Positions 1-39,180 are shown, counted from the first letter of the stretch. The stretch is DNA of 39,180 nucleotides from a virus (IMGVR_UViG_3300045988_088556), one strand, 5' to 3'. The notes: generated by a model from the sequence alone, not told the origin. Program-made: numbers and translations.

Positions 1-45
1 GATGCAGCGTAGTCTCGTGGGCTCGGAGATGTGTATAAGAGACAG
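1..45. other. Library adapter: 11-nt tag, Nextera read-2 adapter GTCTCGTGGGCTCGG and Tn5 mosaic end AGATGTGTATAAGAGACAG. Not biological.
   Basis: Exact match to the well-known Nextera transposase adapter. Its perfect reverse complement is at 39136-39180. Confidence 0.92.
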
Positions 46-217
46 GTTTTAAGGGATAGGGTGGGGGAAACTACCCATTTGTGATATTGGTAAAATTGGC
101 GCGAATCGGGCTAAAACCTTGTATTTATGAGGCTTCTTACATGAAATGAGCCTTGGAAGAGGGGGTACACCCCTCCAAACGGGGTTCTAATGGTGTCGGA
201 GGGGTATACGTTTCGTG

Positions 218-907
218 TTAGAAGAACTTTGAAATGCTTCCAATAACCTCAAATACGTTCATGATGCGTTCTACTGAGTATTCTTGTTCGTCATAGTCTG
301 TCGTATTGATAGGGACGAAACGCAGCTTCTTTGGATCTGACGACCGTCGGAGTATCTTGATGGTGCGTAATGTATCAAGTACGACAGCGTAGATTTCCCC
401 ATATTGAATGTCCTCCAGGGTGCATTTATGGAGGGCAATAATGTCACCATGGTTAATTTTGGGTTCCATAGAGTGTCCTGTGACATTACACCAGAAGTCT
501 GCCTTCTCAAATCCTTGTATTACGATGTTGTTGGTCGGAATAGTTACTTGAGAATTGACAATCTCATTGAACCCACCTAAGAAGTCCACATCATAATAAG
601 GCTTGCCTATGGCTGGGTTATATGAAACTTTAGGCAATTTTTCTTCCGAATCTGATTTTTCTTGTTTTTTTTCTTGCATAGTTGAGAGCATCTCTCCTCT
701 GCCGGTAATTAACCATTCGACACTAACATCCGAGGCATAAGCGAGAAATCTTGCAATATTATCTTCGCTTATACCATTATTTTGCTGTAATATACCGCGG
801 GTAACACCCGATTCTTTATAAAATTCATAGGGGGAAACCCCTTTTTGAGCCAGATAAAGCAAGATATTCTGCTTTATAGGCGATTTTTCTTGTCTTTTTT
901 CTTGCAT
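218..907 (-). CDS. CI/LexA-like phage repressor (N-terminal HTH plus C-terminal S24 peptidase domain)
   Basis: 229-aa ORF. HTH-like segment GVSPYEFYKESGVTRGILQQ, S24 nucleophile motif GHSMEP, downstream Lys in TIKILRR. Divergent from the early operon and low in GC, like phage immunity regions. Confidence 0.8.
   Translation of the reverse strand: MQEKRQEKSPIKQNILLYLAQKGVSPYEFYKESGVTRGILQQNNGISEDNIARFLAYASDVSVEWLITGRGEMLSTMQEKKQEKSDSEEKLPKVSYNPAIGKPYYDVDFLGGFNEIVNSQVTIPTNNIVIQGFEKADFWCNVTGHSMEPKINHGDIIALHKCTLEDIQYGEIYAVVLDTLRTIKILRRSSDPKKLRFVPINTTDYDEQEYSVERIMNVFEVIGSISKFF
654..688. repeat. Copy 1 of a ~34-nt direct repeat, internal to the repressor gene. Contains in-frame Met77.
   Basis: gatttttcttgttttttttcttgcatagttgagag versus copy 2 at 882-915: 2 substitutions and a 1-nt indel. 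Confidence 0.85.
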
Positions 908-8849: not shown

Positions 8850-8870
8850 TTTGCCCCATGTCAAACAGAA

Positions 8871-8907
8871 AGAGCGTTCCCGGCTGATTGCTTGGAACGC
8901 TCTTTTT
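8871..8907. terminator. Bidirectional intrinsic terminator between convergent operons
   Basis: A 10-bp perfect stem, agagcgttcc (8871-8880) with ggaacgctct (8894-8903), with a 13-nt loop. Followed by TTTT on the plus strand and a T-rich tract on the minus strand. Confidence 0.65.
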
Positions 8908-8935
8908 ATGTTGTCAGAATCGAATTATAACGCCG

Positions 8936-9775
8936 TTAGGCGGCATCGGTGAACAACATCATGTCTGTGTAGTGCGAGCTGTAGTTCACTGTTGCGTTGA
9001 ACTCCACCTTGTGGCAGTTCTTGAATGGGTTGCCCACGGTCGGGTTCTTGCCCATCCATTCACAAAGCTCAATAATGGATGACTTGTTGGAAGTGAAATA
9101 TATAAAGTGATGTCTGGCAAGAATGGTCAGCACATCGAGGTAGTCGGAAAGTTTCCAGTACATATTATATGTGCCAACATCGGTGGATAGATAGGGCGGA
9201 TCAACAAGGTACACAACATTCGGCATGTCTTTGTATCTGGCGAACACCTCTTTGTAGTCGCATGATACTACTGTGATACCTTCAAGATAGTCCTCACAAG
9301 TAGGATAGTCTGACTTGCGGAGATTGTTGTATAGAGCCTCCTTCTTCATTTCGGGGATGCTCAATTTGTATTTCATGGAGAACATCAGTCCGGAAGAAAT
9401 GGTGATGAAGTCAATGTACCCGACCTCTCGTTCCTCTTGCTCCAAACGAGCGAATATGCGGTCGCGCAGTTCACCACGGATGCAGCTGTGCTTGGGTATG
9501 CCTTCCGTCTCCACCATTTTGCGCAGGTCAGCCAAAAGGTGGTTGGTCTGCGGGATGTGCTGTAGGCGGTTGCGGTAGCCGTCGAAGTCGTTGTATATGA
9601 CTGTGGCATTTGGCTTCTGGCACTTGGTGATGTGCGACAGCAGACCCGAACCGCCGAACAAATCCACGAATACTGTGTCCTCTGGATATTGTTTTAGAAC
9701 CTTGATAAACTCACGCGCGAACATGCGCTTCTGCCCCACGAAAGGGAGCGGTGCCGATAGATACTGTTTTCTCAT
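8936..9775 (-). CDS. dam: Dam-family N6-adenine DNA methyltransferase (D12 class), orphan
   Basis: Motif I FVDLFGGSG and motif IV DPPY (LVDPPYLS) in alpha-class order. No restriction-enzyme gene is adjacent. Confidence 0.85.
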   Translation of the reverse strand: MRKQYLSAPLPFVGQKRMFAREFIKVLKQYPEDTVFVDLFGGSGLLSHITKCQKPNATVIYNDFDGYRNRLQHIPQTNHLLADLRKMVETEGIPKHSCIRGELRDRIFARLEQEEREVGYIDFITISSGLMFSMKYKLSIPEMKKEALYNNLRKSDYPTCEDYLEGITVVSCDYKEVFARYKDMPNVVYLVDPPYLSTDVGTYNMYWKLSDYLDVLTILARHHFIYFTSNKSSIIELCEWMGKNPTVGNPFKNCHKVEFNATVNYSSHYTDMMLFTDAA

Positions 9776-9778
9776 GCC

Positions 9779-10417
9779 TTACACGTTCAGTTCAAATTTC
9801 ACGTTCTCGTTTCCGTTGAGCAACTGGCGTGTGTGGCTGATGTTGTTCTCGTAGATATGCACATTCGCAAGGTTCAGCGTGATGGACTTCAAAGGCAAGT
9901 CAATCTGCCGGGCCATAAGGTAGAGGTGGTAGATGTCGGCAGGCAAGCCGAGGTTCGCGTCCGAGCTGCGCTGGTATGCCGACACCACCAGTTCGCCGTT
10001 CTCTATCTGGAACTGAACGAGCGACAGGCACGGAGCCTGATTTGTCTCCGCATCGGTGGAACCGAGGAATAGCACATAGTTCTTGCTGTTGCGCTTCTCG
10101 CGGTTGATTTTGGCAATGAGCGGTGGCAGTTTCTCAAAATAGGTGGGGTAGGAGTTCACAAGGATGGCACCGCAGTAGTCCCACCAGTTGATGCCCACCT
10201 CGCGGTACTTCTCCACGTTGCGCTCGCCCTGCATGAATAGCTGTAGCTCGTTCCTTAACTTCTTGCGTGCGATGCCGTGCCCCTCGAAAATGTCGAGTAG
10301 GTCGGCAGGGGAAAGCACCAACCGCTCGTTGAGCAGATAGCGTATGCTCCCCTTCTTGTTTTGTTGGCACTTGCCCTCGGCAAGCACCTTCTGCAAAATT
10401 TGATGGTATTTGTTCAT
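9779..10417 (-). CDS. Thymidylate-synthase-family pyrimidine C5 (hydroxy)methylase, probably dCMP-specific
   Basis: Colinear with ThyA motifs: ELQLFMQG (ELLWFLQG), catalytic APC (Cys130, 10028-10030), YQRSSD..LGLP.DI. The residue equivalent to E. coli Asn177 is Asp161 (9935-9937). The C-terminus is short (212 aa in total). Confidence 0.72.
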   Translation of the reverse strand: MNKYHQILQKVLAEGKCQQNKKGSIRYLLNERLVLSPADLLDIFEGHGIARKKLRNELQLFMQGERNVEKYREVGINWWDYCGAILVNSYPTYFEKLPPLIAKINREKRNSKNYVLFLGSTDAETNQAPCLSLVQFQIENGELVVSAYQRSSDANLGLPADIYHLYLMARQIDLPLKSITLNLANVHIYENNISHTRQLLNGNENVKFELNV

Positions 10418-10488
10418 AACCGTTTTGAATTTGAAAACGGTGCAAAGGTAACAACGCGTGTCCCTTCGACAATGACCATACGCAAATG

Positions 10489-10731
10489 TTACACTGCAAG
10501 TAGATTGCAGTCAGTTTTGAAACGCCGTATAAGGCTGTACACCTTGCGCTCGCTTATGGCATATTCTGTGGCGAGCCTTGCCACGATGTACGACACTTTT
10601 TCGCCCTGTGCCGACATCGAGCGGTATTCGTTGAAAAGGTCGATATATTGCACATCGTCAAGCCTTATACCAGCCTTTTGGAAGTAAATCAGTAGTTCCC
10701 TGTTCAAATTAAGTATCTCTATTACTTTCAT
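10489..10731 (-). CDS. Mor/C-like small HTH transcription activator candidate
   Basis: 80 aa with C-terminal HTH IVARLATEYAISERKVYSLIRR. Its own TAttTTTG -7 box lies at 10790-10797 on the minus strand. Confidence 0.5.
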   Translation of the reverse strand: MKVIEILNLNRELLIYFQKAGIRLDDVQYIDLFNEYRSMSAQGEKVSYIVARLATEYAISERKVYSLIRRFKTDCNLLAV

Positions 10732-10757
10732 TTTCAGAAATTTTTAGTACTTTTGCA

Positions 10758-10925
10758 TCGTCTCACTTATTCAGCGCAATCGCGCACAACAAAAATAAAC
10801 CTCTTACTGGCGAACGAGGGTATATGCCCCCGGTCGTGCCGGTAAGAGGTATCGTTGTGTTAATGAGTAAGTGAGACGACTAATTAACAGGCCGGGGGCT
10901 TTTTTATTTCCCTCCCCCGAAGGGA
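10758..10925. promoter_or_regulatory. Structured intergenic region with nested inverted repeats (terminator plus promoter plus long-range stems)
   Basis: - Stem A: 10758-10772 with 10865-10879 (14/15).
- Stem B: 10800-10811 with 10838-10849 (11/12), followed by tttattttt on the minus strand.
- Stem C: 10826-10833 with 10892-10899 (8/8).
- Hairpin D: 10909-10925. Confidence 0.5.
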
Positions 10926-10931
10926 TTGTTC

Positions 10932-11417
10932 TTAGTCTCGGTATAACTCCAAATTGAAATTATCCTTGCTCTTCCATCCATCAGCCAGTGTGTCCTGGAT
11001 ATGCTGCATGGCTTTGGTATAGAAGTCCGTCAGTTCGTCGATGTCGGTGAATGTGTGATAGCATGGCTCATCGTCTGTTCCGAACTTGAACGTGACTGGC
11101 AATGTCTTGCCGTCAGACTGCACAGCCAAGTCGTATGCCACCTTGTAGTTGAACTGGTTCTCGTTTGAGAGCCACACGCTCATGCCGTTCCACACGAAGC
11201 CAGAAAGTATGGTCTCGTTCGTGCGGTCGTTGAACCACTCCGACACCATGGTCTTGATGGTGTCCTCAGATGGTTTTCCGTTGAACTCCGCCTCCATGTA
11301 GTCGGCAGAGCCATCCTCGTTGTTATGCACGTCCCAGCGGACGCGCCATTTTCCTTTGACGGGGTTGGTGCATTCAAGCAGCTTTACCCCTTGTGCTCCG
11401 TTTACTCTGTTCATCAT
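10932..11417 (-). CDS. DUF4376-like protein, translationally coupled to the RT
   Basis: 161 aa. Its ATG overlaps the RT stop (ATGA). Segment ILSGFVWNGMSVWLSNENQFNYKVAYD resembles the DUF4376 core. Recognised from memory. Confidence 0.55.
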   Translation of the reverse strand: MMNRVNGAQGVKLLECTNPVKGKWRVRWDVHNNEDGSADYMEAEFNGKPSEDTIKTMVSEWFNDRTNETILSGFVWNGMSVWLSNENQFNYKVAYDLAVQSDGKTLPVTFKFGTDDEPCYHTFTDIDELTDFYTKAMQHIQDTLADGWKSKDNFNLELYRD

Positions 11418-12766
11418 GTGAAAATGTACTTTGTTCTACCTTTGCCGAAGGTTTCCGCCTTGATGGTGGTCTCGAATGGGAAGCCGTCTGGCATTTCACT
11501 CACTTGCTGGAGAATGTTTTTCATCTCCTCGCTGTTGGTGAAGAACTTCTTCGGCTCGCCGTTCTGCTCGATGGACACGACACAGCGGTCTTCGCCCTGG
11601 CTGGTTTTGACTCCGACCTCGAAGTCTTTTACCACTATGGGCAGGTTCACCAACTCGCGGATGCTTACCACCGCACCCGCAAATCGCTTCTTGCCGTCTT
11701 CCGGCTTGTAAGCGACATTCAAATCCTTAAATGATTTCATTTTTTTGCCTGTTAATTTATAAAACAAATTTCGGCAGCAAGCGTGCTTGGCCATTCCGTA
11801 GAATGACGCAATCAGTTCTCGCCGTCTCTTTCTTGACTTGACTTTGTGTAGTTTCCTTGCATACTTCTTCTTGACACGCTTGCGCAGTAGAGAGTATGAT
11901 CCGTTGAATGTCACATACCCCAAGAAGTCGATTCCTTGCGCTGATGGGAATACCCTTTCGTTCTTCTTGATTTCAAGGTCTATTTTTTCGACTTGCTCAT
12001 GTACAATGCCGTGTGCCAGCCAATTTTCTTGCTTGTTGCCACAGAGCACTCTGCCGTCATCACAATAACGGTAGAAATGGCGGATGCCGTATTTGTCCTT
12101 CAGATAATGGTCAAGGTACTCGGACAACAAGAGATTGCCAGAAGCCTGTGAGCTTCGCAACCCGAAGCTGATGCCCTCCGGAAGGAGATGAAGAAAATGA
12201 TCCAGGAGCGACAGCAGGGTCTTGTCTTTGAATACTCTGCGGTAGCACCACATGACAAACTCAGGCTTAGTATTGTCATAGAAATGCTTGATGTCGAACT
12301 CGTAGCAGTAGCGTGTGCCTTCGGGGTCACGTTCCATGTCCAATTGCATGCACTTGCGGAGATCATGTGTGCCACGCTTCTTAATACTTGCTCCAGTCGT
12401 CCTGATAAAACGCTTATGCAGATGTTGGTCCACCACGTTCATCACGGCATACACTGCGATGCGGTCGTACATGGAAATAATCTGCAGGTGTCTTACTTTG
12501 CCATTCTCACAGATGATGCGTTCATGATAGTTGCCGAGTCGAAAGGAACCATCGGAAAGTTTGGCAGTCAATTCTGCAATCACCTCCTCGCGGTGTGCGA
12601 GCAGATAGCGTCCTTGACGGCATCTCTTTCGTTTTGTCCCACGCAGTACACGGTCAAACGCCTCCGACATATTGCCGTAGGACGTTATCTCTTGCATGAT
12701 ATAGCCTTCTCTGTGCATGGTCTTTTTTTGTGATGGAAGATAAGGGCCTTCCTTTCCCCGGGCCAA
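11414..12766 (-). CDS. DGR-type reverse transcriptase with an extra ~100-aa C-terminal domain
   Basis: RT motifs include catalytic YCDD (12056-12067) and the DGR-typical [LIV]GxxxSQ motif (GLRSSQ, aa 202-207). It lies 148 nt downstream of an AAY-rich template repeat. The start is ambiguous: Met17 at 12718 or Met24 at 12697 are also possible. Confidence 0.88.
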   Translation of the reverse strand: MARGKEGPYLPSQKKTMHREGYIMQEITSYGNMSEAFDRVLRGTKRKRCRQGRYLLAHREEVIAELTAKLSDGSFRLGNYHERIICENGKVRHLQIISMYDRIAVYAVMNVVDQHLHKRFIRTTGASIKKRGTHDLRKCMQLDMERDPEGTRYCYEFDIKHFYDNTKPEFVMWCYRRVFKDKTLLSLLDHFLHLLPEGISFGLRSSQASGNLLLSEYLDHYLKDKYGIRHFYRYCDDGRVLCGNKQENWLAHGIVHEQVEKIDLEIKKNERVFPSAQGIDFLGYVTFNGSYSLLRKRVKKKYARKLHKVKSRKRRRELIASFYGMAKHACCRNLFYKLTGKKMKSFKDLNVAYKPEDGKKRFAGAVVSIRELVNLPIVVKDFEVGVKTSQGEDRCVVSIEQNGEPKKFFTNSEEMKNILQQVSEMPDGFPFETTIKAETFGKGRTKYIFT

Positions 12767-12914
12767 ACTTCTTCGAATCGTTACCGACCTACCAAACTCT
12801 ATTGCCCGACACTTGATGTTTCAGCTTTCCACCTTGAATATAGGTGCTTTTGCTGTGGCTCGTTTCCCTCGGCTCCACATTAGGGACACGTCCCCATCGT
12901 TGTACGCCGATTAG

Positions 12915-13033
12915 TTAGATTTCCAGGCGCGAGCCGACATTCGCATTCGCATTCGAGGCATCGTTATTCGCATTCGCATTCGAGACACCGCCATTCGCGT
13001 TCGCATTGTTGTACCCGCGATAGACCACACGGC
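12915..13033 (-). repeat. DGR template repeat (TR); the 3' boundary is approximate
   Basis: On the minus strand the first 28 nt match the fibre-gene end at 39108-39135 at 26/28 positions, and both mismatches fall at TR adenines. In the VR frame it reads RVVYRGYNNANANGGVSNANANNDASNANANVGSRLEI-stop with 11 AAY codons. No ORF covers it. Confidence 0.82.
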
Positions 13034-13056
13034 CTTTGGGAAACTCTACCAGTTTG

Positions 13057-13064
13057 CAAAGTTA
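13057..13064 (-). promoter_or_regulatory. Candidate promoter -7 box for the TR-RT transcript
   Basis: The minus strand reads taactttg, a perfect TAnnTTTG, ~24 nt upstream of the TR start. Confidence 0.35.
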
Positions 13065-13094: not shown

Positions 13095-13328
13095 TTACAC
13101 AATGAGCCAAAATAACATTGCAATGAAGCCTCCGAGCACTGTGCAAGCCCAGTCAATCCAGTCCCAAGGACAGCCGTGAAGTTTGTCTTTGAGTTCGAGA
13201 CATGAGGCTGCGATGATGGCAGAATAGATGGCAGCCCATGGCGACAATGCGCACAGACCGACCAGCAAACCGCCGATTAGATGCTTGTAGCGGTTGCTTT
13301 TCTTTAGAAATGAGAAAATTTTGCTCAT
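13095..13328 (-). CDS. Small integral membrane protein (2-3 TM segments); role unknown (immunity, holin or exclusion)
   Basis: 77 aa with hydrophobic segments LIGGLLVGLCALSPWAAIYSAIIAA and ACTVLGGFIAMLFWLIV. Confidence 0.55.
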   Translation of the reverse strand: MSKIFSFLKKSNRYKHLIGGLLVGLCALSPWAAIYSAIIAASCLELKDKLHGCPWDWIDWACTVLGGFIAMLFWLIV

Positions 13329-13408
13329 AACTTGTTGTGTTTTGAAAATTTGTTATTACCTTTGCAATGCGAGGGATGGGGTAACCTTTAGAGACCCGCT
13401 CTCGTTCC

Positions 13409-13435
13409 AGCCAAGTTTTCTAACTTGGCTTTTTT
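13409..13435. terminator. Hairpin overlapping the MuF stop codon, with a T-tract on the plus strand
   Basis: agccaagtt-ttct-aacttggct (9-bp stem) followed by ttttt on the plus strand. On the minus strand it is preceded by AAAAAA, and the KKPS-stop codons lie within the stem. Confidence 0.5.
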
Positions 13436-32515: not shown

Positions 32516-35500
32516 ATGACAGACGAGGAGAAGAAGACCGTCGTTCAGGAAGTCCTGAACCAGATAAAGACAGACAGTCAGAGCGTGGACGAACTGGAAA
32601 CCGCCACCTCACTTGACTGCGTGAACTCACTCCCGGCCATGCAGGGTGAGAAGGTTGTCCGTGTGCCTGTGTCCCTGCTTGCGAAACCTGCGGAAGACGC
32701 GGCCAAGAGAGCAAACGCAGCCGCCGCCACAGCGGACGCATCATCGAAAGCGGCCGGAACTGCGGCACAGCAGGCCAAAGACGCGGCAGATGTGGCTTCC
32801 GGCGCGGCACTCACGGCCAACAATTCGGCCATGCTTGCCGATGCGGCCACGGCAAAGCTGAATGATGCCATCGCAGCCGCCAACACCCACCCGGTGGTGC
32901 TGGCGAACAGCCTTGTCGGTGATGCAGACCGCATATTCAGTGACTGGTCAGAGGCGATGGAGACCATTGCCGGCAACGAGAGCGTCGGTGGTGAGAAAGT
33001 ATTTACCACCGGCTGCGTGATGATATTCAGGAGTGCGGACGGTTGGGAGTCCTGGCAGTTCACCGGTGATCCCCTCGATGACCTCCATGATGCGGAGAAA
33101 TGGCAGGAATATGCCACAGGCGGCAGTGGCGGAAACACCTACAATGTGACAGAGGAAATCCCGCTTGAGAGCGGTTACTACACATTGGCGACCGCCATTG
33201 TTGCCGTAGAGGAGAAGAAACGCGCCAAGGGACGCTGCATCACCTACGAGACGGCACAGGGCAAGTGGGAGACCAAGCAGTTCATCGGCACGAGCCTTGA
33301 CAGTTGGGAACAGGCGGCAAGTTGGGAGGACTTCGGCGGTGCGGGTAACGTGAAGAGCATATCGGTAAACGGAAAGAAACAGACGCTTGACAGCGCGGGC
33401 AACGTGAACCTCACCATAAATGAGACGGAGGTGGACGAGAGTCTGAACGCCAACTCGACGAACCCGGTGCAGAACGCGGCCGTGGCCGCCAAACTTGCAG
33501 AGGTCGAAGCCAACACCATATTCGGCGGCAGTGCCGAACTGAGCGATGACGAGAGCACCGTGCGTGTGACGCTGACCAACAAGAGCGGCGCGGAGGTTGT
33601 CGGCTTGGATATTCCTGCCGGCAAGGGCGGCGGTGGCGGAGAAACCTCCACCACCAGAATCGTGTTGACGGCAGAAACAGACAAGTCCGTCATCAAGGAA
33701 GGCGACAAGGCCACACTCACATGGTTCTACGACCACCAGTACAGCAGCGGTGACGAGAAGGGGACATCGACGGGGCAGAAAGCCACGGTGGAGATACAGA
33801 TGAAACGCGGCGCGACGCTGATGTATTCCGATACGCAGCAGGACGTGAGCAAGGGCACCTATACGCTGGACCTGACGAAATACCTCCTTTTGGGCACGAC
33901 TGACATCTATGTGAAGGCCACCACCACCGACCCGACCACAGGCAAGACGCAGACCAAGCAGAGCTATGTAAGTGTGAAGGCGGTGACGCTTGCACTGACG
34001 AGCGGTTTCAATATTGCCGAGTGCATTGCAAAGGGTGGTTATGGCGTGAGCGAGAATGTGGGCATACCCTATGCCGTAAGCGGAAGCGGTACAAAGACCG
34101 TCACCCTCTATGTGGACGGCATACAGAAAGATTCCGTTTCTGTCACGAGGAGCGGTACGACCAACGGTATCTTTACGCTCTCCATGTCCGGGCTTGCTGT
34201 CGGCAGGCATACCGTGCAGATGGTGGCTGAGATGAAGGCAAGCGAGGAACTGACACTGAAGAGCGATAGCATCTATTTCGATATATTGAAGACCGGCAGC
34301 AGCGCTCCATATATAGGAACCAAGATAACCTTCAAGGACGGACGCGTCTTTACGGCAGACCATCTCACCCCGACTATCGACACAGGCCAGTATGAGCAGG
34401 TGTTGTTCGACTTCGTGGCGTATGACCCGACAGCGACCCCTGCAAGCATGAGCGTGTGGAGGGACGGCATAAGGACACAGACGGTGAGCGTGCCGAGAAC
34501 GGTGCAGACCTACACGAACCGTTTCCTGGAGAAAGGCGCAGTTGCGATGGTGCTGAAGTGCGGCACGACCGAATACAAGTTCAATGTGAACGTGACGGAG
34601 AGCGGCATCGACCTTGGCGAGGCGACATCGGGACTGGTGCTGAAGCTGACGGCAGCGGGCAGGAGCAATGCGGAGAGCAGTCCTGCGGAATGGCGTTATA
34701 ACGACGTTCAAACGGCGTTTGAAGGCTTTGACTGGCAGAGCAACGGCTGGACGGGTGACGCGCTGAAATTGACGAACGGCGCGAACATCGAGATAGGCTG
34801 CAAACCATTCGGCAACGATGCTACGACCACTGGTGCGACTTACGAGATGGAACTGACCTGCACCAATGTGACCGACCGCAAGGGCACGGTGGTGGACTGT
34901 ATGGCCGACAATGTCGGTTTCAGACTGACCACGCAGGAGGCGCTGATGTGCACGGGCGCAGGCTCGGAAGTGGGCACGAAGTTCGCGAGCGGCATGACAC
35001 TGAAGATAGCCTTCGTGGTCCAGGAGAAGAAGGGCAACCGGCTGATGGAACTGTATGTGAACGGCATATTGAGCGGTGCAAAGCAGTACGCCCCGACAGA
35101 CAGCCTTCTGCAGGACGAGCCGGCCAACATCAGGATAACGAGTGAGAGCGCGGACGTGGAGGTAAGGAACCTGCGCATATACAACCGTGCATTGGGCGAT
35201 GACGAGGAACTTGCCAACTACATGGTGGACCGCCCGACGAGCGATGAGATGGTGTTTCTGTTCGAGAAGAACCAGGTGATGGACGACGAGGGCACTGATG
35301 TCGATATAGACAAGCTGAGGGCGATGGGCAAGAGCGTGATGCGCATCGTGGGCGACGTTAACTTAGTGAACCAGACGAACAACAAGAAGTTCGAGGTGCC
35401 GGTCGATATATACTTCTATTCGGCCTACGGCAAGGAGTATGACTTCATCATCTACCAGTGCGGTCTGCGCATACAGGGAACATCATCGACGACCTACCCG

Positions 35501-38500
35501 AGAAAGAACTACCGCATATACTTCTCAAGAGAGAGCAAGTACGGCACGAAGTTGTATGTGAACGGAGTGGAGGTTCCTGACTTCAAGTATTCGTTCAAGC
35601 CGGGGGCACGTCCCATTGACATTTTCTGTCTGAAAGCCGACTTCTCGGACTCGTCCTCAACGCACAACCCCGGCGGTGTGCGCATCGTGAACGATATTTG
35701 GAAGAAATGCGGCTGGCTGACTCCGCCACAGGCGGCATACAAAGGCAACTACGACGTGAGAATCGGCGTGGACGGTTTCCCTATGGACCTGTTCTATGAC
35801 AACGACGGGACAGGTGAGAACGTGTACTTAGGCAAGTACAACTTCCTGAACGAGAAGAGCGGCAGCGGCATCATCTACGGCTTTGAGGGTATCGAGGGTT
35901 TCAATGACGAAGCAACACTCAATGGTGAACGCAACAAGTGCATCTGTCTGGAGTTTCTGAACAACTCTGAGGCACTGTGTCTGTTCGGTACGAGCAACAT
36001 GGACTCGTTTGACGACGCACTGGAGTTCCGTTTCAAGGCCGATGACACATGGGCGACGGCGCACGAGGACGACAAGGCAGCTGTGAAACGCCTTTGGGAA
36101 TGGATTTATTCGTGCAAGGGCAACCCGACAAAGTTCTTGAACGAATATGAGGGCTATTTCGGCAACGACTCGCCCTTTGCATGGTATCTGATAACCGACT
36201 ACCTGATGGCTGTCGATAACCGCGCGAAGAACATGATGCTCGTGACATGGGACGGCAAGATATGGTACTTCATTCCCTACGACATGGATACCATCTTCGG
36301 CGAGCGGAATGACTCGGTGCTGAAGTACGACTACACGATAACGTGGGAGACGATGGACGAGAGCATCGGCTCGTATGCCTTTGCAGGGCATGACTCGGTA
36401 TTGTGGGAGCTGGTGAGAAGCTGCCCCGACAAGTTGCGCGAGGTGGCCGACAAGCTGCGCTCTACCATGTCGTTGGAATATGTGCTGAAAGTGTTCAACG
36501 AGAAGCAGATGGGCAACTGGTGCGAGCGCATCTACAACAAGGACGGTATCTATAAGTATATCAAACCGCTCACGGATGGCGTGACGAGTGCTGACGGAAC
36601 GACCAATTACTACGACTACCTGTACGCGTTGCAGGGCAGCCGGTACGCCCACCGCACCTTCACCATTCAGAACCGCTTCGCCCTGCTTGACAGTCAGTAT
36701 GTGTGCGGCACATACAGAAAGGACAGCTTTGCGGCCTACTTCGGCTACAAATTTGGCTCGGATAACCGCAAAATAAGAATCACGGCAAGCGAGCGTTACT
36801 ACTTCGGATACGGCTACACAAGCGGAACGCCTCACCAAAGTGCGGTGCTGGCCGAGGACACGGGTAGCACGGTAAACCTGACATTGGATACAGATCTCAT
36901 TGTGAACGACCCGCAGTACATCTACGGCGCAAGCCGCATCATGGGGCTTGACCTGACGGACGTGAGTCACGCTATACTGCAGACGCTGAATCTGAACAAC
37001 TGCACGGCACTGAGGACGCTGGACGTGAGCTGTGCCCAGGCACAGACAACGCTGAACGCCCTGTTGGTAAACGGTTGTCGGAACTTGCGGACATTGAGCA
37101 TGACCGGTCTGAAGTCCACAGCCTTTACAGGCATAGACCTGAGTAACAACACGAAGTTGGAGACACTGAAAGCTGGCCGGACGGCACTGACAGGCGTGAA
37201 CTTCGCACAGGGCGCACCGCTGACGAGCGTGACGCTGCCTGCGACATCGCAGACGCTGGAGTTGCGCTATTTGGGCAAACTGAGGACAAGTGGCCTGACA
37301 TTAGAGGGCACGGGCAATATCACACGCTTTGTGGTGGATAATTGTCCCGGCATAGACTGGCAGACATTGTATGCAAGATGCACCAATGTAAAGTATCTGC
37401 GCGTGACTGGTATCGACATGGAGGGCGACGGCAGCCTGCTGACCTCGCTGATGGCGATTGGCGGCGTGGACGAGAACGGTGGCAACGTGGATACCTGCCG
37501 ACTGGTGGGCACATATCGACTGACGCAATACAAGGCCGATGAAGAGTACGATGCACTGCAGCGGCACTTCCCCGAACTGAACATTGTACAGCCCGAATAC
37601 ACCATGCTGGAGAGCGACGAGAGTGTGGCAGACGATGCGAATATCTCCAATCTTGACAACGGAACGGGCTACAAGTACGGCAACGACTACAAGCCGAGCG
37701 GGCACATAGAGGCAATCTTCAAGAACCGCCACCGTGTGCTGGCGAAGGTGACAAAGAAGGCTACGACAAGAAATGTGAACATCGCCAATGTGGATACCGT
37801 GGTGAACAACCTTGACGGTGAGATGACATATTGCCCACTTGCAGACACGGACAGCAACAAGTATTATGATGGCACGGTTGCAAAGCTGGACGGCACGGAG
37901 GGCGACTGGATGATGTATGAGCCATTCTTCTGGAGCAAGGGCATCAACGACTTCCTGAACGGCAAGAACTACAGCTGCTACAGTTCAAGGGACAAGGACC
38001 ACATGCCGACGGTGCCGAACGTGGACGTGCTTACGCTTGCGGACATCAAGGCACGTCAAGGCGGTTATACCAGCGGAAAGAAGATAATGAGCGGCAAGGA
38101 CACCATCAAGAACTCCTACAGCACAGACAGCACCTATTCCGTATGTATGGTCGATGTCAGCGGTTACAAGAAAGTACGCTGGCCGAGTGTGCCAGGAACC
38201 AATCTCGTAGGCTCAATATTTGCTGATGCAAGCGGTAATGTGGTGAAAGACATCGTGGTTCCGACTCTGGGCAGCCGTTTCGAGGCCGGTATGTATCTTA
38301 TATCAGATGTTCCGGAAGGTGCGACGGCATTGTATTTCTCCATTTTGAACACGGCAGAGTTCGATAAGGTAGTCCTCTCCAACAGTGAGAAGATAGAGGA
38401 CATGGAGCCGGAGTGGTTCGCCAATGACGAGCACTTGTGCGCTGTTGTGGGCAGCTCGGTAGTCGGCAGCAAGTTGCGCTCTGCCATAACAGGCAACAGC

Positions 38501-39135
38501 ACCACCGGCAGTATGTCATGGACGGACTTCCACTATTACAGCGTGCAGCGAGGCATGCAGCAGATAGACGCGCTGATGCACTTCCGTATTGCCAACTTGA
38601 GCTATGCCAAGTATGGGCGCAGGAATATGCAGGAACAGTGCGGCGCCGGCCAGCATTCCTATATGAGAACAACCGGCGGTACAGCGTCAAGAGGTATGCA
38701 GGACACCATTGGCTTTGAGGAGGCAAGCGGAATCAACCCGAATGTGACAAACAATACCTCCGATGCAGGCGTGCACCTGTATGCCTGGTATATAGAGAAA
38801 GACGAGTACGGAGCCACAAAGGTGACACAGGTGAACAATATCTGCTGTATAGGCTATGAGGACATCTACGGCAACAAGTATGATATGATGGACGGCGTTG
38901 ATGTACCGAATACAAGCGGCAATGTCGGCAAGTGGCGCATTTGGCTACCTGACGGCAGTACCATTATGATAAAAGGCATGAGCAACAGCGGCTACTGGAT
39001 AACCACCGTGGCGCATGGCAAACTGATGGCAATAGTGCCTGTTGGAGCCATGAATGGCTCGTCCACCACCTACTACTCTGATATATACTATTTCAGTTCA
39101 GGCACGTGCCGTGTGGTCTATCGCGGGTGCTACAA
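32516..39135 (+). CDS. Giant receptor-binding tail fibre protein and DGR target. 3'-partial (more than 2206 aa) with LamG-like, CotH-like, LRR-like and C-terminal lectin-like regions.
   Basis: The frame is open from the ATG at 32516 to the adapter junction; I translated it by eye and spot-checked it at 34682, 36962 and 38702. It is absent from the ORF track because it has no stop in the window.
- LamG-like: LYVNG...VEVRNLRIYNRAL
- CotH-like: PRKNYRIYF, FCLKADFSDSS, VYLGKYNF
- LRR-like: LNLNNCTALRTLDVS...
- The 3' end matches the TR. Confidence 0.85.
39108..39135 (+). repeat. DGR variable repeat (VR), only the first 28 nt visible, truncated by the fragment end
   Basis: gccgtgtggtctatcgcgggtGcTacaa aligned to TR gccgtgtggtctatcgcgggtAcAacaa. 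The mismatches at 39129 and 39131 both correspond to TR adenines (13012 and 13010). Confidence 0.75.
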
Positions 39136-39180
39136 CTGTCTCTTATACACATCTCCGAGCCCACGAGACTACGCTGCATC
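39136..39180. other. Library adapter (reverse complement of 1-45). Not biological.
   Basis: CTGTCTCTTATACACATCT plus CCGAGCCCACGAGAC plus the tag. This is the Nextera mosaic-end read-through sequence. Confidence 0.92.

What the first reader, a model, noticed from the sequence alone, without database searches (positions are those of the whole stretch)
12915..13033. DGR template repeat built from alternating AAY and GCG codons, directly upstream of the RT
Read on the minus strand in the frame set by the matching fibre-gene end, this non-coding segment spells RVVYRG-YNNANANGGVSNANANNDASNANANVGSRLEI-stop.
- 11 of the 32 codons after RG are AAC or AAT.
- This is the hallmark codon design of DGR template repeats: adenines sit at codon positions 1 and 2, so adenine-specific mutagenesis diversifies residues without creating stops.
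- The segment lies 148 nt upstream of an RT on the same strand.
- A perfect TAnnTTTG -7 box precedes it at 13057-13064.
- It ends in a GC-rich 16-mer (12923-12938) reminiscent of an IMH*-type element.
Basis: partly seen in the sequence, partly recalled or inferred. Interest (0 to 1): 0.85.

Follow-up and report, generated by a model that had tools for sequence, protein, structure and literature searches.

The report
Template repeat of a Hankyphage-type DGR
This non-coding stretch is the master copy that a phage's built-in reverse-transcriptase system uses to rewrite the tip of its tail-fibre gene; it is a real but already well-known kind of element, here in a relative of the gut "Hankyphage" in which the machinery sits 26 kb from its target.

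Summary
On the minus strand, 13033→12923 (111 nt) is the template repeat (TR) of a diversity-generating retroelement. It has 25 adenines, none at codon position 3. Twenty-two of them sit in 11 AAY codons, and no A-substitution can make a stop.

The cognate variable repeat (VR) lies at 39108-39135 on the + strand, at the end of a tail-fibre gene of more than 2,200 aa. A sequencing adapter cuts it after 28 nt. Both of its mismatches fall on TR adenines.

- **Full VR:** the nearest relative (IMG/VR contig 3300045988_143741) has the same layout and a complete VR, with 11 of 11 differences at A. Over 25 same-contig TR/VR pairs, 238 of 252 mismatches are at A.
- **Other parts:** the RT's best solved-structure match is Bordetella bRT. 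The TR–RT spacer is Rfam RT-3 RNA (146 bits).
- **RNA helix:** a 7-bp helix with strong covariation support brackets the TR, like the Bordetella "cPRT Stop" duplex.

The phage is a Hankyphage-like Mu-type phage, probably of Prevotella. Hankyphage's DGR is published and experimentally active.

Verdict: new member of a known kind, modest interest.

The parts
12923..13033 (-). Template repeat (TR), 111 nt; the extent of TR/VR homology
   Evidence: Matches 39108-39135 in the window (I5). Identical TR in dozens of related contigs. Complete VRs differ from it only at A. Codon design.
12923..12938 (-). A-free GC-rich 16-mer GTCGGCTCGCGCCTGG at the TR 3' end. It is shared with VRs (the IMH/IMH*-type common segment) and contains UCGGCUC (12937-12931), the candidate template strand for priming.
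   Evidence: Essentially invariant in TRs and VRs. Complementary to spacer GAGCCGA, -13.8 kcal/mol. The priming role is inferred by analogy only.
12913..12922 (-). TR-specific flank (AAATCTAACT) where TR departs from VR (IMH*-side difference).
   Evidence: VRs continue CCTTCCGCGG at this point instead.
13057..13064 (-). Bacteroidetes-type -7 promoter box TAACTTTG
   Evidence: Present. Kept at this place in all genuine TR loci, although DNA further upstream is unalignable between lineages. Not above chance by count alone. No transcript data.
13038..13044 (-). 5' flank strand GUUUCCC of a long-range helix that brackets the TR
   Evidence: Pairs with 12868-12862. 99.8% of cells paired, 5 of 7 pairs with compensatory changes, slid controls 32-67% paired.
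12759..12912 (-). Spacer RNA between TR and RT = Rfam RT-3 RNA (RF03068). It includes GAGCCGA (12875-12869) and GGGAAAC (12868-12862).
   Evidence: 146.2 bits, full-length match. Same position in Hankyphage and six distant relatives. Helix covariation.
11414..12718 (-). DGR reverse transcriptase, 434 aa
   Evidence: Pfam RVT_1. Best PDB hit is 8UB7, E 2.5e-15, with FGLRSSQ aligned to bRT IGSLTSQ and YCDD to YMDD. The aligned 8UB7 sequence is 100% identical to BPP-1 brt. PHROG 1423.
10932..11417 (-). 161-aa ORF overlapping the RT stop; a candidate accessory protein, labelled 'Avd' in Hankyphage records
   Evidence: Follows the RT in 73 of 73 loci. PHROG 19239 of unknown function; DUF4376 hit below cut-off. 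AF2 model pLDDT 93, alpha/beta. No PDB fold match, best E 0.28.
13095..13328 (-). 77-aa ORF with two hydrophobic stretches just upstream of the TR promoter; it occupies the position of Hankyphage hp41
   Evidence: ORF listed. PHROG 38535, E 1.4e-32. Travels with the TR in both layouts. Function unknown.
39108..39135 (+). First 28 nt of the variable repeat (VR), cut off by the adapter
   Evidence: 26 of 28 identical to the TR. The two mismatches (39129 A>G, 39131 A>T) are at TR adenines 13012 and 13010.
32516..39135 (+). Target gene: giant tail-fibre protein (over 2,200 aa), 3' end missing
   Evidence: Open frame found. CotH hit. 72-78% nucleotide identity to Hankyphage tail-fibre genes. In the closest relative the gene ends 179 nt after the VR start.
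39136..39180 (.). Nextera/Tn5 adapter, also inverted at 1-45; not phage sequence
   Evidence: 45-nt perfect terminal inverted repeat containing CTGTCTCTTATACACATCT. Recognising it as the adapter rests on my own knowledge.

Best explanation
Window 13033→12923 (minus strand) is the template repeat of a diversity-generating retroelement carried by a Hankyphage-like, Mu-type temperate phage, probably of Prevotella.

**Proposed mechanism**
1. A transcript starts just downstream of the conserved -7 box, at about 13050. It runs through a short 5' flank, the TR, the 154-nt RT-3 spacer and on into the RT gene.
2. The 5' flank (GUUUCCC) pairs with the spacer (GGGAAAC). This encloses the TR in a loop, as the avd:Sp 'cPRT Stop' duplex does in the Bordetella DGR.
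3. The RT copies the TR into cDNA and misincorporates opposite adenines.
4. The cDNA replaces the VR at the 3' end of the tail-fibre gene (39108 onwards, + strand, 26 kb away). Up to 25 adenine positions are re-randomised: 11 Asn codons plus Tyr, Tyr and Asp. That is roughly 5e14 possible peptides with no stop codons.
5. The A-free 16-mer common to TR and VR, followed by different sequence in each, marks the 3' homology boundary and gives directionality (IMH-like).

**Shown:** repeat geometry, codon design, the A-only TR/VR differences in relatives, the RT class, the RT-3 match, the long-range helix, and conservation of the promoter box.

**Inferred:** the transcription start, the priming site (spacer A 12869 on template G 12938), the role of the 161-aa ORF, and activity in this particular phage.
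For: - **Geometry and codon design:**
- **In-window VR:** 2 of 2 mismatches at A.
- **Closest relative:** IMGVR_UViG_3300045988_143741 has a TR side 99.7% identical and adjacent to MuF, a fibre end 94% identical, and TR and VR about 25.8 kb apart on opposite strands, with 11 of 11 mismatches at A.
- **Family-wide signature:** in 25 same-contig pairs, 238 of 252 mismatches are at A. 39% of A sites are substituted, against under 1% for C, G and T.
- **Same TR, different VRs:** five distinct VRs differ from this exact TR only at A.
- **RT:** best PDB hit is 8UB7, whose aligned sequence is BPP-1 brt, with GxxxSQ and YCDD aligned.
- **Spacer RNA:** RT-3 RNA at 146 bits, in the same position in Hankyphage and distant relatives.
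- **Long-range helix:** 99.8% paired, 5 of 7 pairs compensatory. A homologous element is described for Bordetella and predicted in 207 other DGRs (bioRxiv 10.1101/2023.10.23.563531).
- **Promoter:** the -7 box is conserved across lineages.
- **Published relatives:** Hankyphage has 117-bp TR/VR repeats (PMC6199706), and VR diversification was measured in cultures and capsids (PMC12135933).
Against: - Inside the window only 28 nt of VR survive. Two A-site mismatches have a chance probability of about 0.04, so the A-bias rests on related contigs, not on this molecule.
- No canonical Avd was found. The ORF labelled Avd in relatives has no sequence or fold similarity to Avd.
- The lectin fold of the target domain could not be shown: no Pfam or PDB profile hit, and the AF2 model was poor at pLDDT 52.
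- The -7 box is not statistically unusual on its own.
- There are no expression or activity data for this phage.
Confidence: 0.93

Rival explanations
1. It is a decayed or inactive DGR. The TR-like segment would be a relic duplication of the fibre 3' end, and the VR differences seen between contigs would be old, fixed polymorphisms rather than ongoing mutagenic retrohoming.
For: - There are no activity data for this phage.
- One relative has a VR identical to its TR (L070).
- No recognisable Avd was found.
Against: - The RT ORF is intact, with its catalytic motifs.
- The TR is identical across dozens of contigs, while every VR but one is different and differs only at A.
- About one third of VR copies sit at contig ends, as expected if reads disagree within samples.
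- The RT-3 RNA and the long-range helix are under purifying and compensatory selection.
- Sister Hankyphages are experimentally active (PMC12135933).
Confidence: 0.05
2. The placement of the TR/RT cassette 26 kb from the VR is an assembly or chimeric-read artefact. The real genome would have the Hankyphage order: fibre-VR, small ORF, TR, RT.
For: - The window carries adapter sequence at both ends.
- Several related public contigs are visibly chimeric at TR/VR (L036, L044, L075, L081, L115, L151).
Against: - The junctions of the relocated block (about 8850-8940 and 13330-13420) lie in unique sequence, not in the repeat.
- At least 12 independent contigs share the TR-small ORF-MuF junction at 96-99.9% identity.
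- At least 9 contigs hold TR and VR far apart on opposite strands.
- In the closest relative the fibre gene is followed by a short end region and then what looks like a host lipoprotein gene, with no TR or RT.
Confidence: 0.02
3. The RT and its upstream structured RNA belong to another retroelement class (a retron, group II intron or defence RT), and the similarity of 13006-13033 to the fibre end is incidental.
For: - NCBIfam gives only sub-threshold group II intron and Drt2 hits.
- Weinberg et al. left the function of most RT motifs, RT-3 included, open and suggested retrons for many of them (PMC5737381).
Against: - The best structural relative is the DGR enzyme bRT, with the DGR-type GxxxSQ motif.
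- The repeat is full-length (111 nt) in relatives, with A-only differences.
- RT-3 always lies between a TR and the RT in these loci.
- No intron-like RNA was found on both sides of the RT.
Confidence: 0.01

Closest known systems
Hankyphage (Bacteroides phage p00 / jmh72_hp) DGR; Benler et al. 2018 (PMC6199706), Vendrell-Fernandez et al. 2025 (PMC12135933)
   Same: - Same gene set in the same internal order: small ORF, TR, RT-3 spacer, 434-aa RT, 161-aa ORF, hp44, ThyA, Dam-type methyltransferase.
- Same TR/VR design, NANAN motifs and boundary sequences.
- VR at the C-terminus of a tail-fibre protein of about 2,200 aa.
- Mu-type phage backbone (Portal_Mu and Mu_F hits).
   Different: - Only about 67-79% nucleotide identity where the two align; the early and head regions are not alignable at DNA level.
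- The whole cassette, from the small ORF and TR through to the methyltransferase, is inverted and moved from the right end to between the early genes and the head operon. As a result TR and VR are 26 kb apart on opposite strands, and the fibre gene becomes the last gene.
- The host is probably Prevotella rather than Bacteroides or Phocaeicola.
Bordetella phage BPP-1 DGR (brt, avd, TR, Mtd VR)
   Same: - Homologous RT.
- A-specific TR-to-VR information flow into a tail-fibre gene.
- A GC-rich A-free shared 3' segment, followed by differing IMH and IMH* sequence.
- A structured spacer RNA between TR and RT.
- A helix between the segment just upstream of the TR and the spacer (the 'cPRT Stop'), directly 3' of a spacer strand complementary to the TR 3' end.
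   Different: - The spacer RNA belongs to a different Rfam family: RT-3 here, RT-10 in BPP-1.
- The RT is about 110 aa longer.
- No avd gene lies upstream of the TR. The only conserved neighbour is a 161-aa alpha/beta protein downstream of the RT with no Avd similarity.
- No BPP-1-like GC hairpin after the VR was evident (not tested rigorously).
- TR and VR are not adjacent.
Phage-borne DGRs with non-adjacent targets; Wu et al. 2018 (PMC5758913)
   Same: The target lies within the same prophage, less than 50 kb from the RT. That survey reports many such cases in phage-associated DGRs.
   Different: Here a closely related lineage (Hankyphage) retains the adjacent layout, so the two states can be compared directly.

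Membership tests
Diversity-generating retroelement (DGR) | A TR/VR repeat pair whose differences are confined to TR adenines | tested here: met
   Window: 2 of 2 mismatches at A over the 28 nt that survive. Nearest relative with the same TR: 11 of 11. 25 same-contig pairs: 238 of 252 at A.
Diversity-generating retroelement (DGR) | A DGR-clade reverse transcriptase next to the TR (GxxxSQ in motif 4, YxDD) | tested here: met
   Best PDB hit is 8UB7, E 2.5e-15, with FGLRSSQ aligned to IGSLTSQ and YCDD to YMDD. The aligned 8UB7 sequence is BPP-1 brt. No phylogenetic placement was done.
Diversity-generating retroelement (DGR) | TR adenines placed at codon positions 1 and 2 (AAY-rich), so that stops are avoided | tested here: met
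   25 A: 11 at position 1, 14 at position 2, none at position 3. 11 AAY codons. No stop is reachable.
Diversity-generating retroelement (DGR) | VR at the 3' end of a protein-coding target gene | tested here: met
   The VR starts at codon ~2199 of the fibre ORF. In relatives the gene ends about 22 codons after the repeat.
Diversity-generating retroelement (DGR) | IMH at the VR end versus a non-identical IMH* at the TR end | tested here: met
   A shared A-free 16-mer is followed by CCTTCCGCGG in VRs and AAATCTAAC in the TR. The functional requirement was not tested.
Diversity-generating retroelement (DGR) | Accessory variability determinant (Avd, four-helix-bundle pentamer) | tested here: not met
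   No Pfam, NCBIfam, PHROG or PDB sequence hit to Avd for the neighbouring ORFs that were scanned. The confident model of the 161-aa ORF has no PDB fold match. Avd is common in DGRs but, to my knowledge, not universal, so this does not exclude membership. The RT C-terminal extension was not modelled.
Diversity-generating retroelement (DGR) | Variable residues displayed on a C-type-lectin (or Ig) fold | tested here: inconclusive
   No Pfam or PDB profile hit. AF2 model of the complete C-terminus has pLDDT 52, below 50 over the VR. Benler et al. report a C-type lectin domain for the Hankyphage homologue.
Diversity-generating retroelement (DGR) | Ongoing diversification (activity) | not testable with these tools
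   Needs reads or cultures. Indirect evidence only: about one third of related VR copies lie at contig breaks, and sister phages are active.
Rfam RT-3 RNA (RF03068) | Score above the gathering threshold over the full model, located upstream of an RT gene | tested here: met
   146.2 bits against a threshold of 40.5, model positions 1-148 of 148, at 12912→12759, 41 nt before the RT ATG.
Hankyphage-like Mu-type phages | Shared gene content and order with Bacteroides phage p00 | tested here: inconclusive
   The tail and DGR modules align at 67-79%, with Portal_Mu and Mu_F hits. However, the early and head modules are not alignable at DNA level and the DGR block is rearranged. Intergenomic similarity was not computed, so genus-level membership is doubtful.

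The most novel reading that the evidence does not exclude
Hankyphage-type DGRs may run on a ribonucleoprotein that differs from the Bordetella paradigm.

- There is no Avd.
- Instead there is an RT with a C-terminal extension of about 110 aa, plus a strictly linked 161-aa alpha/beta protein of a fold not in the PDB.
- These would assemble on the RT-3 RNA, whose GGGAAAC loop clamps the TR 5' flank.
- The adjacent GAGCCGA strand could switch between the Rfam P1 helix and the TR 3' end to prime cDNA synthesis.

The naturally split lineage seen here shows that the cassette can sit far from its target, on the opposite strand.
Probability: 0.3. Interest if true: 0.6.

Novelty: new member of a known kind. 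Interest (0 to 1): 0.33.

Why it matters
On its own, the finding adds one more phage to a well-studied family of tail-fibre-diversifying retroelements.

Three by-products are of more use to specialists:
1. Rfam's orphan RT-3 motif can be assigned to the TR–RT spacer of Hankyphage-type DGRs. Natural covariation supports a helix that brackets the TR, which gives the Bordetella cryo-EM 'stop duplex' an evolutionary counterpart in a distant DGR lineage.
2. The 'Avd' label in Hankyphage records is not supported by sequence or fold. This raises the question of what replaces Avd in one of the most abundant gut DGR families.
3. The split and adjacent layouts occur in sister lineages, so they form a natural comparison of how a DGR performs on an adjacent versus a distant target.

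The case also shows why DGR finders miss such elements: assemblies tend to break inside the VR.

Tried and rejected
- The exact 40-mer spanning the TR end and spacer start found nothing in GTDB representative genomes. The broader 21-mer found only relatives at 86% identity or less, so no isolate host could be named.
- Pfam, NCBIfam and PDB sequence searches for Avd in the ORFs next to the cassette found nothing.
- Foldseek of the 161-aa model against the PDB gave no hit better than E 0.28.
- The lectin-fold test failed technically. There was no profile hit and the AF2 model was poor, so I ran no fold search on it.
- RT homologues returned by the big protein search were all at least 90% identical. 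That is too shallow to model the RT C-terminal extension, so I left it alone.
- The unbiased covariation scan was swamped by G·U noise. I replaced it with the formal count on a stated structure.
- No convincing GC hairpin was found downstream of the VR.
- The first VR-variability script had an off-by-one error and was rerun.
- A canonical -33 TTTG at the standard spacing was not found. The nearest TTTG ends 13 nt before the -7 box (reading).

Full report
**1. What is in the sequence**

The stated start, 13033, is two bases out of that frame.

Eleven of the 32 codons after RG are AAC or AAT. All 25 adenines of the in-frame repeat lie at codon position 1 or 2, and 22 of them are in AAY codons. 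No adenine substitution can create a stop codon. Across all six frames of the window, only 9 of 78,170 32-codon windows reach 11 AAY codons (mean 0.84), and the maximum sits here. No ORF of 50 aa or more covers the segment on that strand.

**2. The partner copy and why it is truncated**

The only other copy in the window is 39108-39135 on the + strand. It lies in frame at the end of an ORF that opens at 32516 and runs off the window after more than 2,200 codons.

The window's two ends (1-45 and 39136-39180) are the same 45-nt sequence inverted, containing CTGTCTCTTATACACATCT. From my own knowledge this is the Nextera/Tn5 adapter. The phage insert therefore stops 28 nt into the variable repeat. 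Within those 28 nt there are two mismatches, both at TR adenines (13012 A>G, 13010 A>T). With 6 A among 28 bases, this has a chance probability of about 0.04. The window alone is suggestive, not decisive.

**3. Recovering the full VR from relatives**

The 21-mer at the 5' end of the repeat occurs in at least 120 IMG/VR stretches and in 34 stretches of GTDB genomes, mostly Prevotella, Leyella, Xylanibacter and Parabacteroides.

Sorting copies by their flanks shows that the repeat is 111 nt long, from GCCGTGTGG to GTCGGCTCGCGCCTGG (window 13033→12923). After it, VRs continue CCTTCCGCGG and the gene reads on for about 22 codons (…VGSRL|AFRGQIVKAQSVVAYKALDEVA*). TRs instead continue AAATCTAAC.

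Contig IMGVR_UViG_3300045988_143741 (60.6 kb) is the closest relative:
- its TR side is 99.7% identical to the window's and adjacent to the MuF gene;
- its fibre end is 94% identical;
- its TR and VR lie about 25.8 kb apart on opposite strands;
- its complete VR differs from the TR at 11 positions, all adenines.

Over 25 same-contig TR/VR pairs, 238 of 252 mismatches are at TR adenines: 39% of A sites are changed, against under 1% of C, G or T sites. Twelve of the 14 exceptions come from one pair with an indel. Five distinct complete VRs differ from this exact TR at 11-12 A sites and at none of the 86 non-A sites.

**4. The rest of the element**

*RT.* ORF 11414-12718 (434 aa) is a reverse transcriptase (Pfam RVT_1). 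Its best match among solved structures is 8UB7 (E 2.5e-15). In that alignment FGLRSSQ lines up with IGSLTSQ and YCDD with YMDD. The aligned 8UB7 sequence is 100% identical to BPP-1 brt. The Hankyphage RT gene has the same length, so the start is most likely the ATG at 12718 rather than the mechanical TTG at 12766.

*Spacer RNA.* Between TR and RT, 12912→12759 is a full-length match to Rfam RT-3 RNA at 146 bits against a threshold of 40.5. The same motif sits in the same place in Hankyphage and six diverged relatives. Weinberg et al. tied only RT-10 to a DGR (BPP-1) and merely speculated about the other RT motifs.

*Promoter.* TAACTTTG at 13064→13057 is present. TAnnTTTG occurs 13 times in the window against 13.0 expected, so presence alone means nothing. 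However, the box is kept at this position in every genuine TR locus, although the DNA further upstream is unalignable between lineages. That is reasonable evidence for a promoter. The conserved GG at about 13050 is a plausible transcript start, but this is inferred.

**5. RNA architecture**

The TR 5' flank and a loop of RT-3 change together between lineages: GTTTCCC/GGGAAAC, GCCACCC/GGGTGGC, GCCTCCC/GGGAGGC, ATCTCCC/GGGAGAT, ACTTCCC/GGGAAGT and GGCACTC/GAGTGCC.

I counted this on an alignment of 65 flank-TR-spacer units (A2). The 7-bp helix (window 13044-13038 with 12868-12862) has 99.8% of cells paired. Five of its seven pairs show changes on both sides, with 50 double-change cells. None of 500 shuffles reached the observed score, and slid controls paired only 32-67%. 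It is the best-supported helix in the whole RNA, and it replaces a 2-bp local hairpin drawn there in the Rfam model.

In the Bordetella DGR, cryo-EM shows an equivalent duplex between the segment just upstream of the TR and Sp 59-70 (the "cPRT Stop"). [quoted passage not shown] Similar upstream/downstream pairings were predicted in 207 other DGRs.

Here the spacer strand directly 5' of GGGAAAC is GAGCCGA. It is complementary to UCGGCUC inside the A-free 16-mer (-13.8 kcal/mol). The same spacer strand also forms RT-3's P1 helix (-8.6 kcal/mol). By analogy, priming would occur at spacer A 12869 on template G 12938, immediately after the last mutable AAT codon. These bases are invariant, so this step is inference only.

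**6. Accessory protein and target fold**

The 161-aa ORF that overlaps the RT stop is annotated "Avd" in Hankyphage records. The original description rested on its size and pI. It follows the RT in 73 of 73 loci.

It has no Avd signal in Pfam, NCBIfam, PHROGs or PDB sequences. A confident AF2 model (pLDDT 93, an alpha/beta fold) has no PDB fold match. I therefore record the Avd criterion as not met.

The C-type-lectin fold reported for the Hankyphage target could not be confirmed. There were no profile hits, and the model was poor (pLDDT 52).

**7. Genome context**

Portal_Mu and Mu_F hits and 67-79% nucleotide identity to Hankyphage over the tail and DGR modules make this a Hankyphage-like Mu-type phage.

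In Hankyphage the order at the right end is fibre-VR, hp41, TR, RT, "Avd", hp44, ThyA, methyltransferase. Here the block from the TR to the methyltransferase (8941-13040) aligns inverted to Hankyphage 42579-38413. It lies between the early genes and the head operon, on the same strand as the latter.

This is not an artefact:
- the junctions are in unique sequence;
- at least 12 contigs share the TR-MuF junction;
- at least 9 contigs have TR and VR apart on opposite strands;
- in the closest relative the fibre gene is the last gene before a short end region and what looks like a host lipoprotein gene.

Non-adjacent targets within 50 kb are documented for phage DGRs. RT homologues at 90% identity are labelled Prevotella, which suggests the host.

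**8. Verdict**

It belongs to a family that was described in 2018 and shown to be active in 2025, so it is a new member of a known kind.

The modest extra value lies in four things:
- the assignment of RT-3 to these DGRs;
- the covariation-supported TR-bracketing helix;
- the doubtful Avd annotation;
- the naturally split layout.

Interest 0.33.

Noticed in passing
window 1-45 and 39136-39180: Both ends of the window are the same 45-nt Nextera/Tn5 adapter in inverted orientation. The record is an untrimmed contig or read, and the phage insert is 46-39135.
   Followed up: partly
related loci, e.g. L011, L016, L030, L049, L067, L099, L150: Roughly 26 of about 78 VR copies in public contigs are cut off by a contig end inside the VR, against about 4 TR copies. 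Assemblies seem to break at the hypervariable repeat, which would also explain where this window ends.
   Followed up: partly
L036, L075, L081; L044, L115, L151; L070: Some contigs have TR flanks but carry VR-like A-substitutions. Others join a VR 5' context to the TR 3' flank and spacer. One VR is identical to its TR. I could not tell assembly chimeras from real TR/VR recombination or resetting.
   Followed up: no
L107, L121, L050, L152: Some VR copies carry insertions or deletions of whole internal units of the (AAT-GCG)-type repeat relative to the TR.
   Followed up: no
window 10932-11417 (-): The ORF annotated 'Avd' in Hankyphage records has a confident alpha/beta model with no match in the PDB, and only a sub-threshold DUF4376 hit. 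Even so, it follows the RT in 73 of 73 loci.
   Followed up: yes
window 11414-~11740 (-), RT residues ~327-433: The RT extends about 110 aa beyond the part that aligns to Bordetella bRT. That tail matches a separate 105-position PHROG (19665) of unknown function.
   Followed up: no
window 13095-13328 (-): A 77-aa ORF with two hydrophobic stretches (PHROG 38535) sits just upstream of the TR promoter. It travels with the TR in both the adjacent and the split layouts.
   Followed up: partly
window ~35465-36343 (+), fibre residues 984-1276: The giant tail-fibre protein has a CotH kinase-family Pfam hit (E 2.3e-6) and a weak LRR hit. This is unusual content for a receptor-binding protein.
   Followed up: no
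window 654-687 and 882-915: A 34-nt direct repeat (94% identical), 228 nt apart, overlaps the 5' part of the leftmost minus-strand ORF (218-907). It may be a pair of operator or transposase-binding sites.
   Followed up: no
window 8868-8905: A GC-rich hairpin followed by a T-run lies between the convergent early-region ORF (ending 8849) and the methyltransferase gene (ending 8936). It marks one junction of the relocated cassette.
   Followed up: no
L117 ~1080-1150 versus window 46-200: The DNA after the fibre stop in the closest relative contains GGGGTGGGGGAGTACCCC and GTTTCGTTTTAA motifs. These resemble sequences at the window's left end (GTTTTAAGGGATAGGGTGGGGGAAACTACCC). They may be the Mu-type terminal repeats of the prophage.
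   Followed up: no
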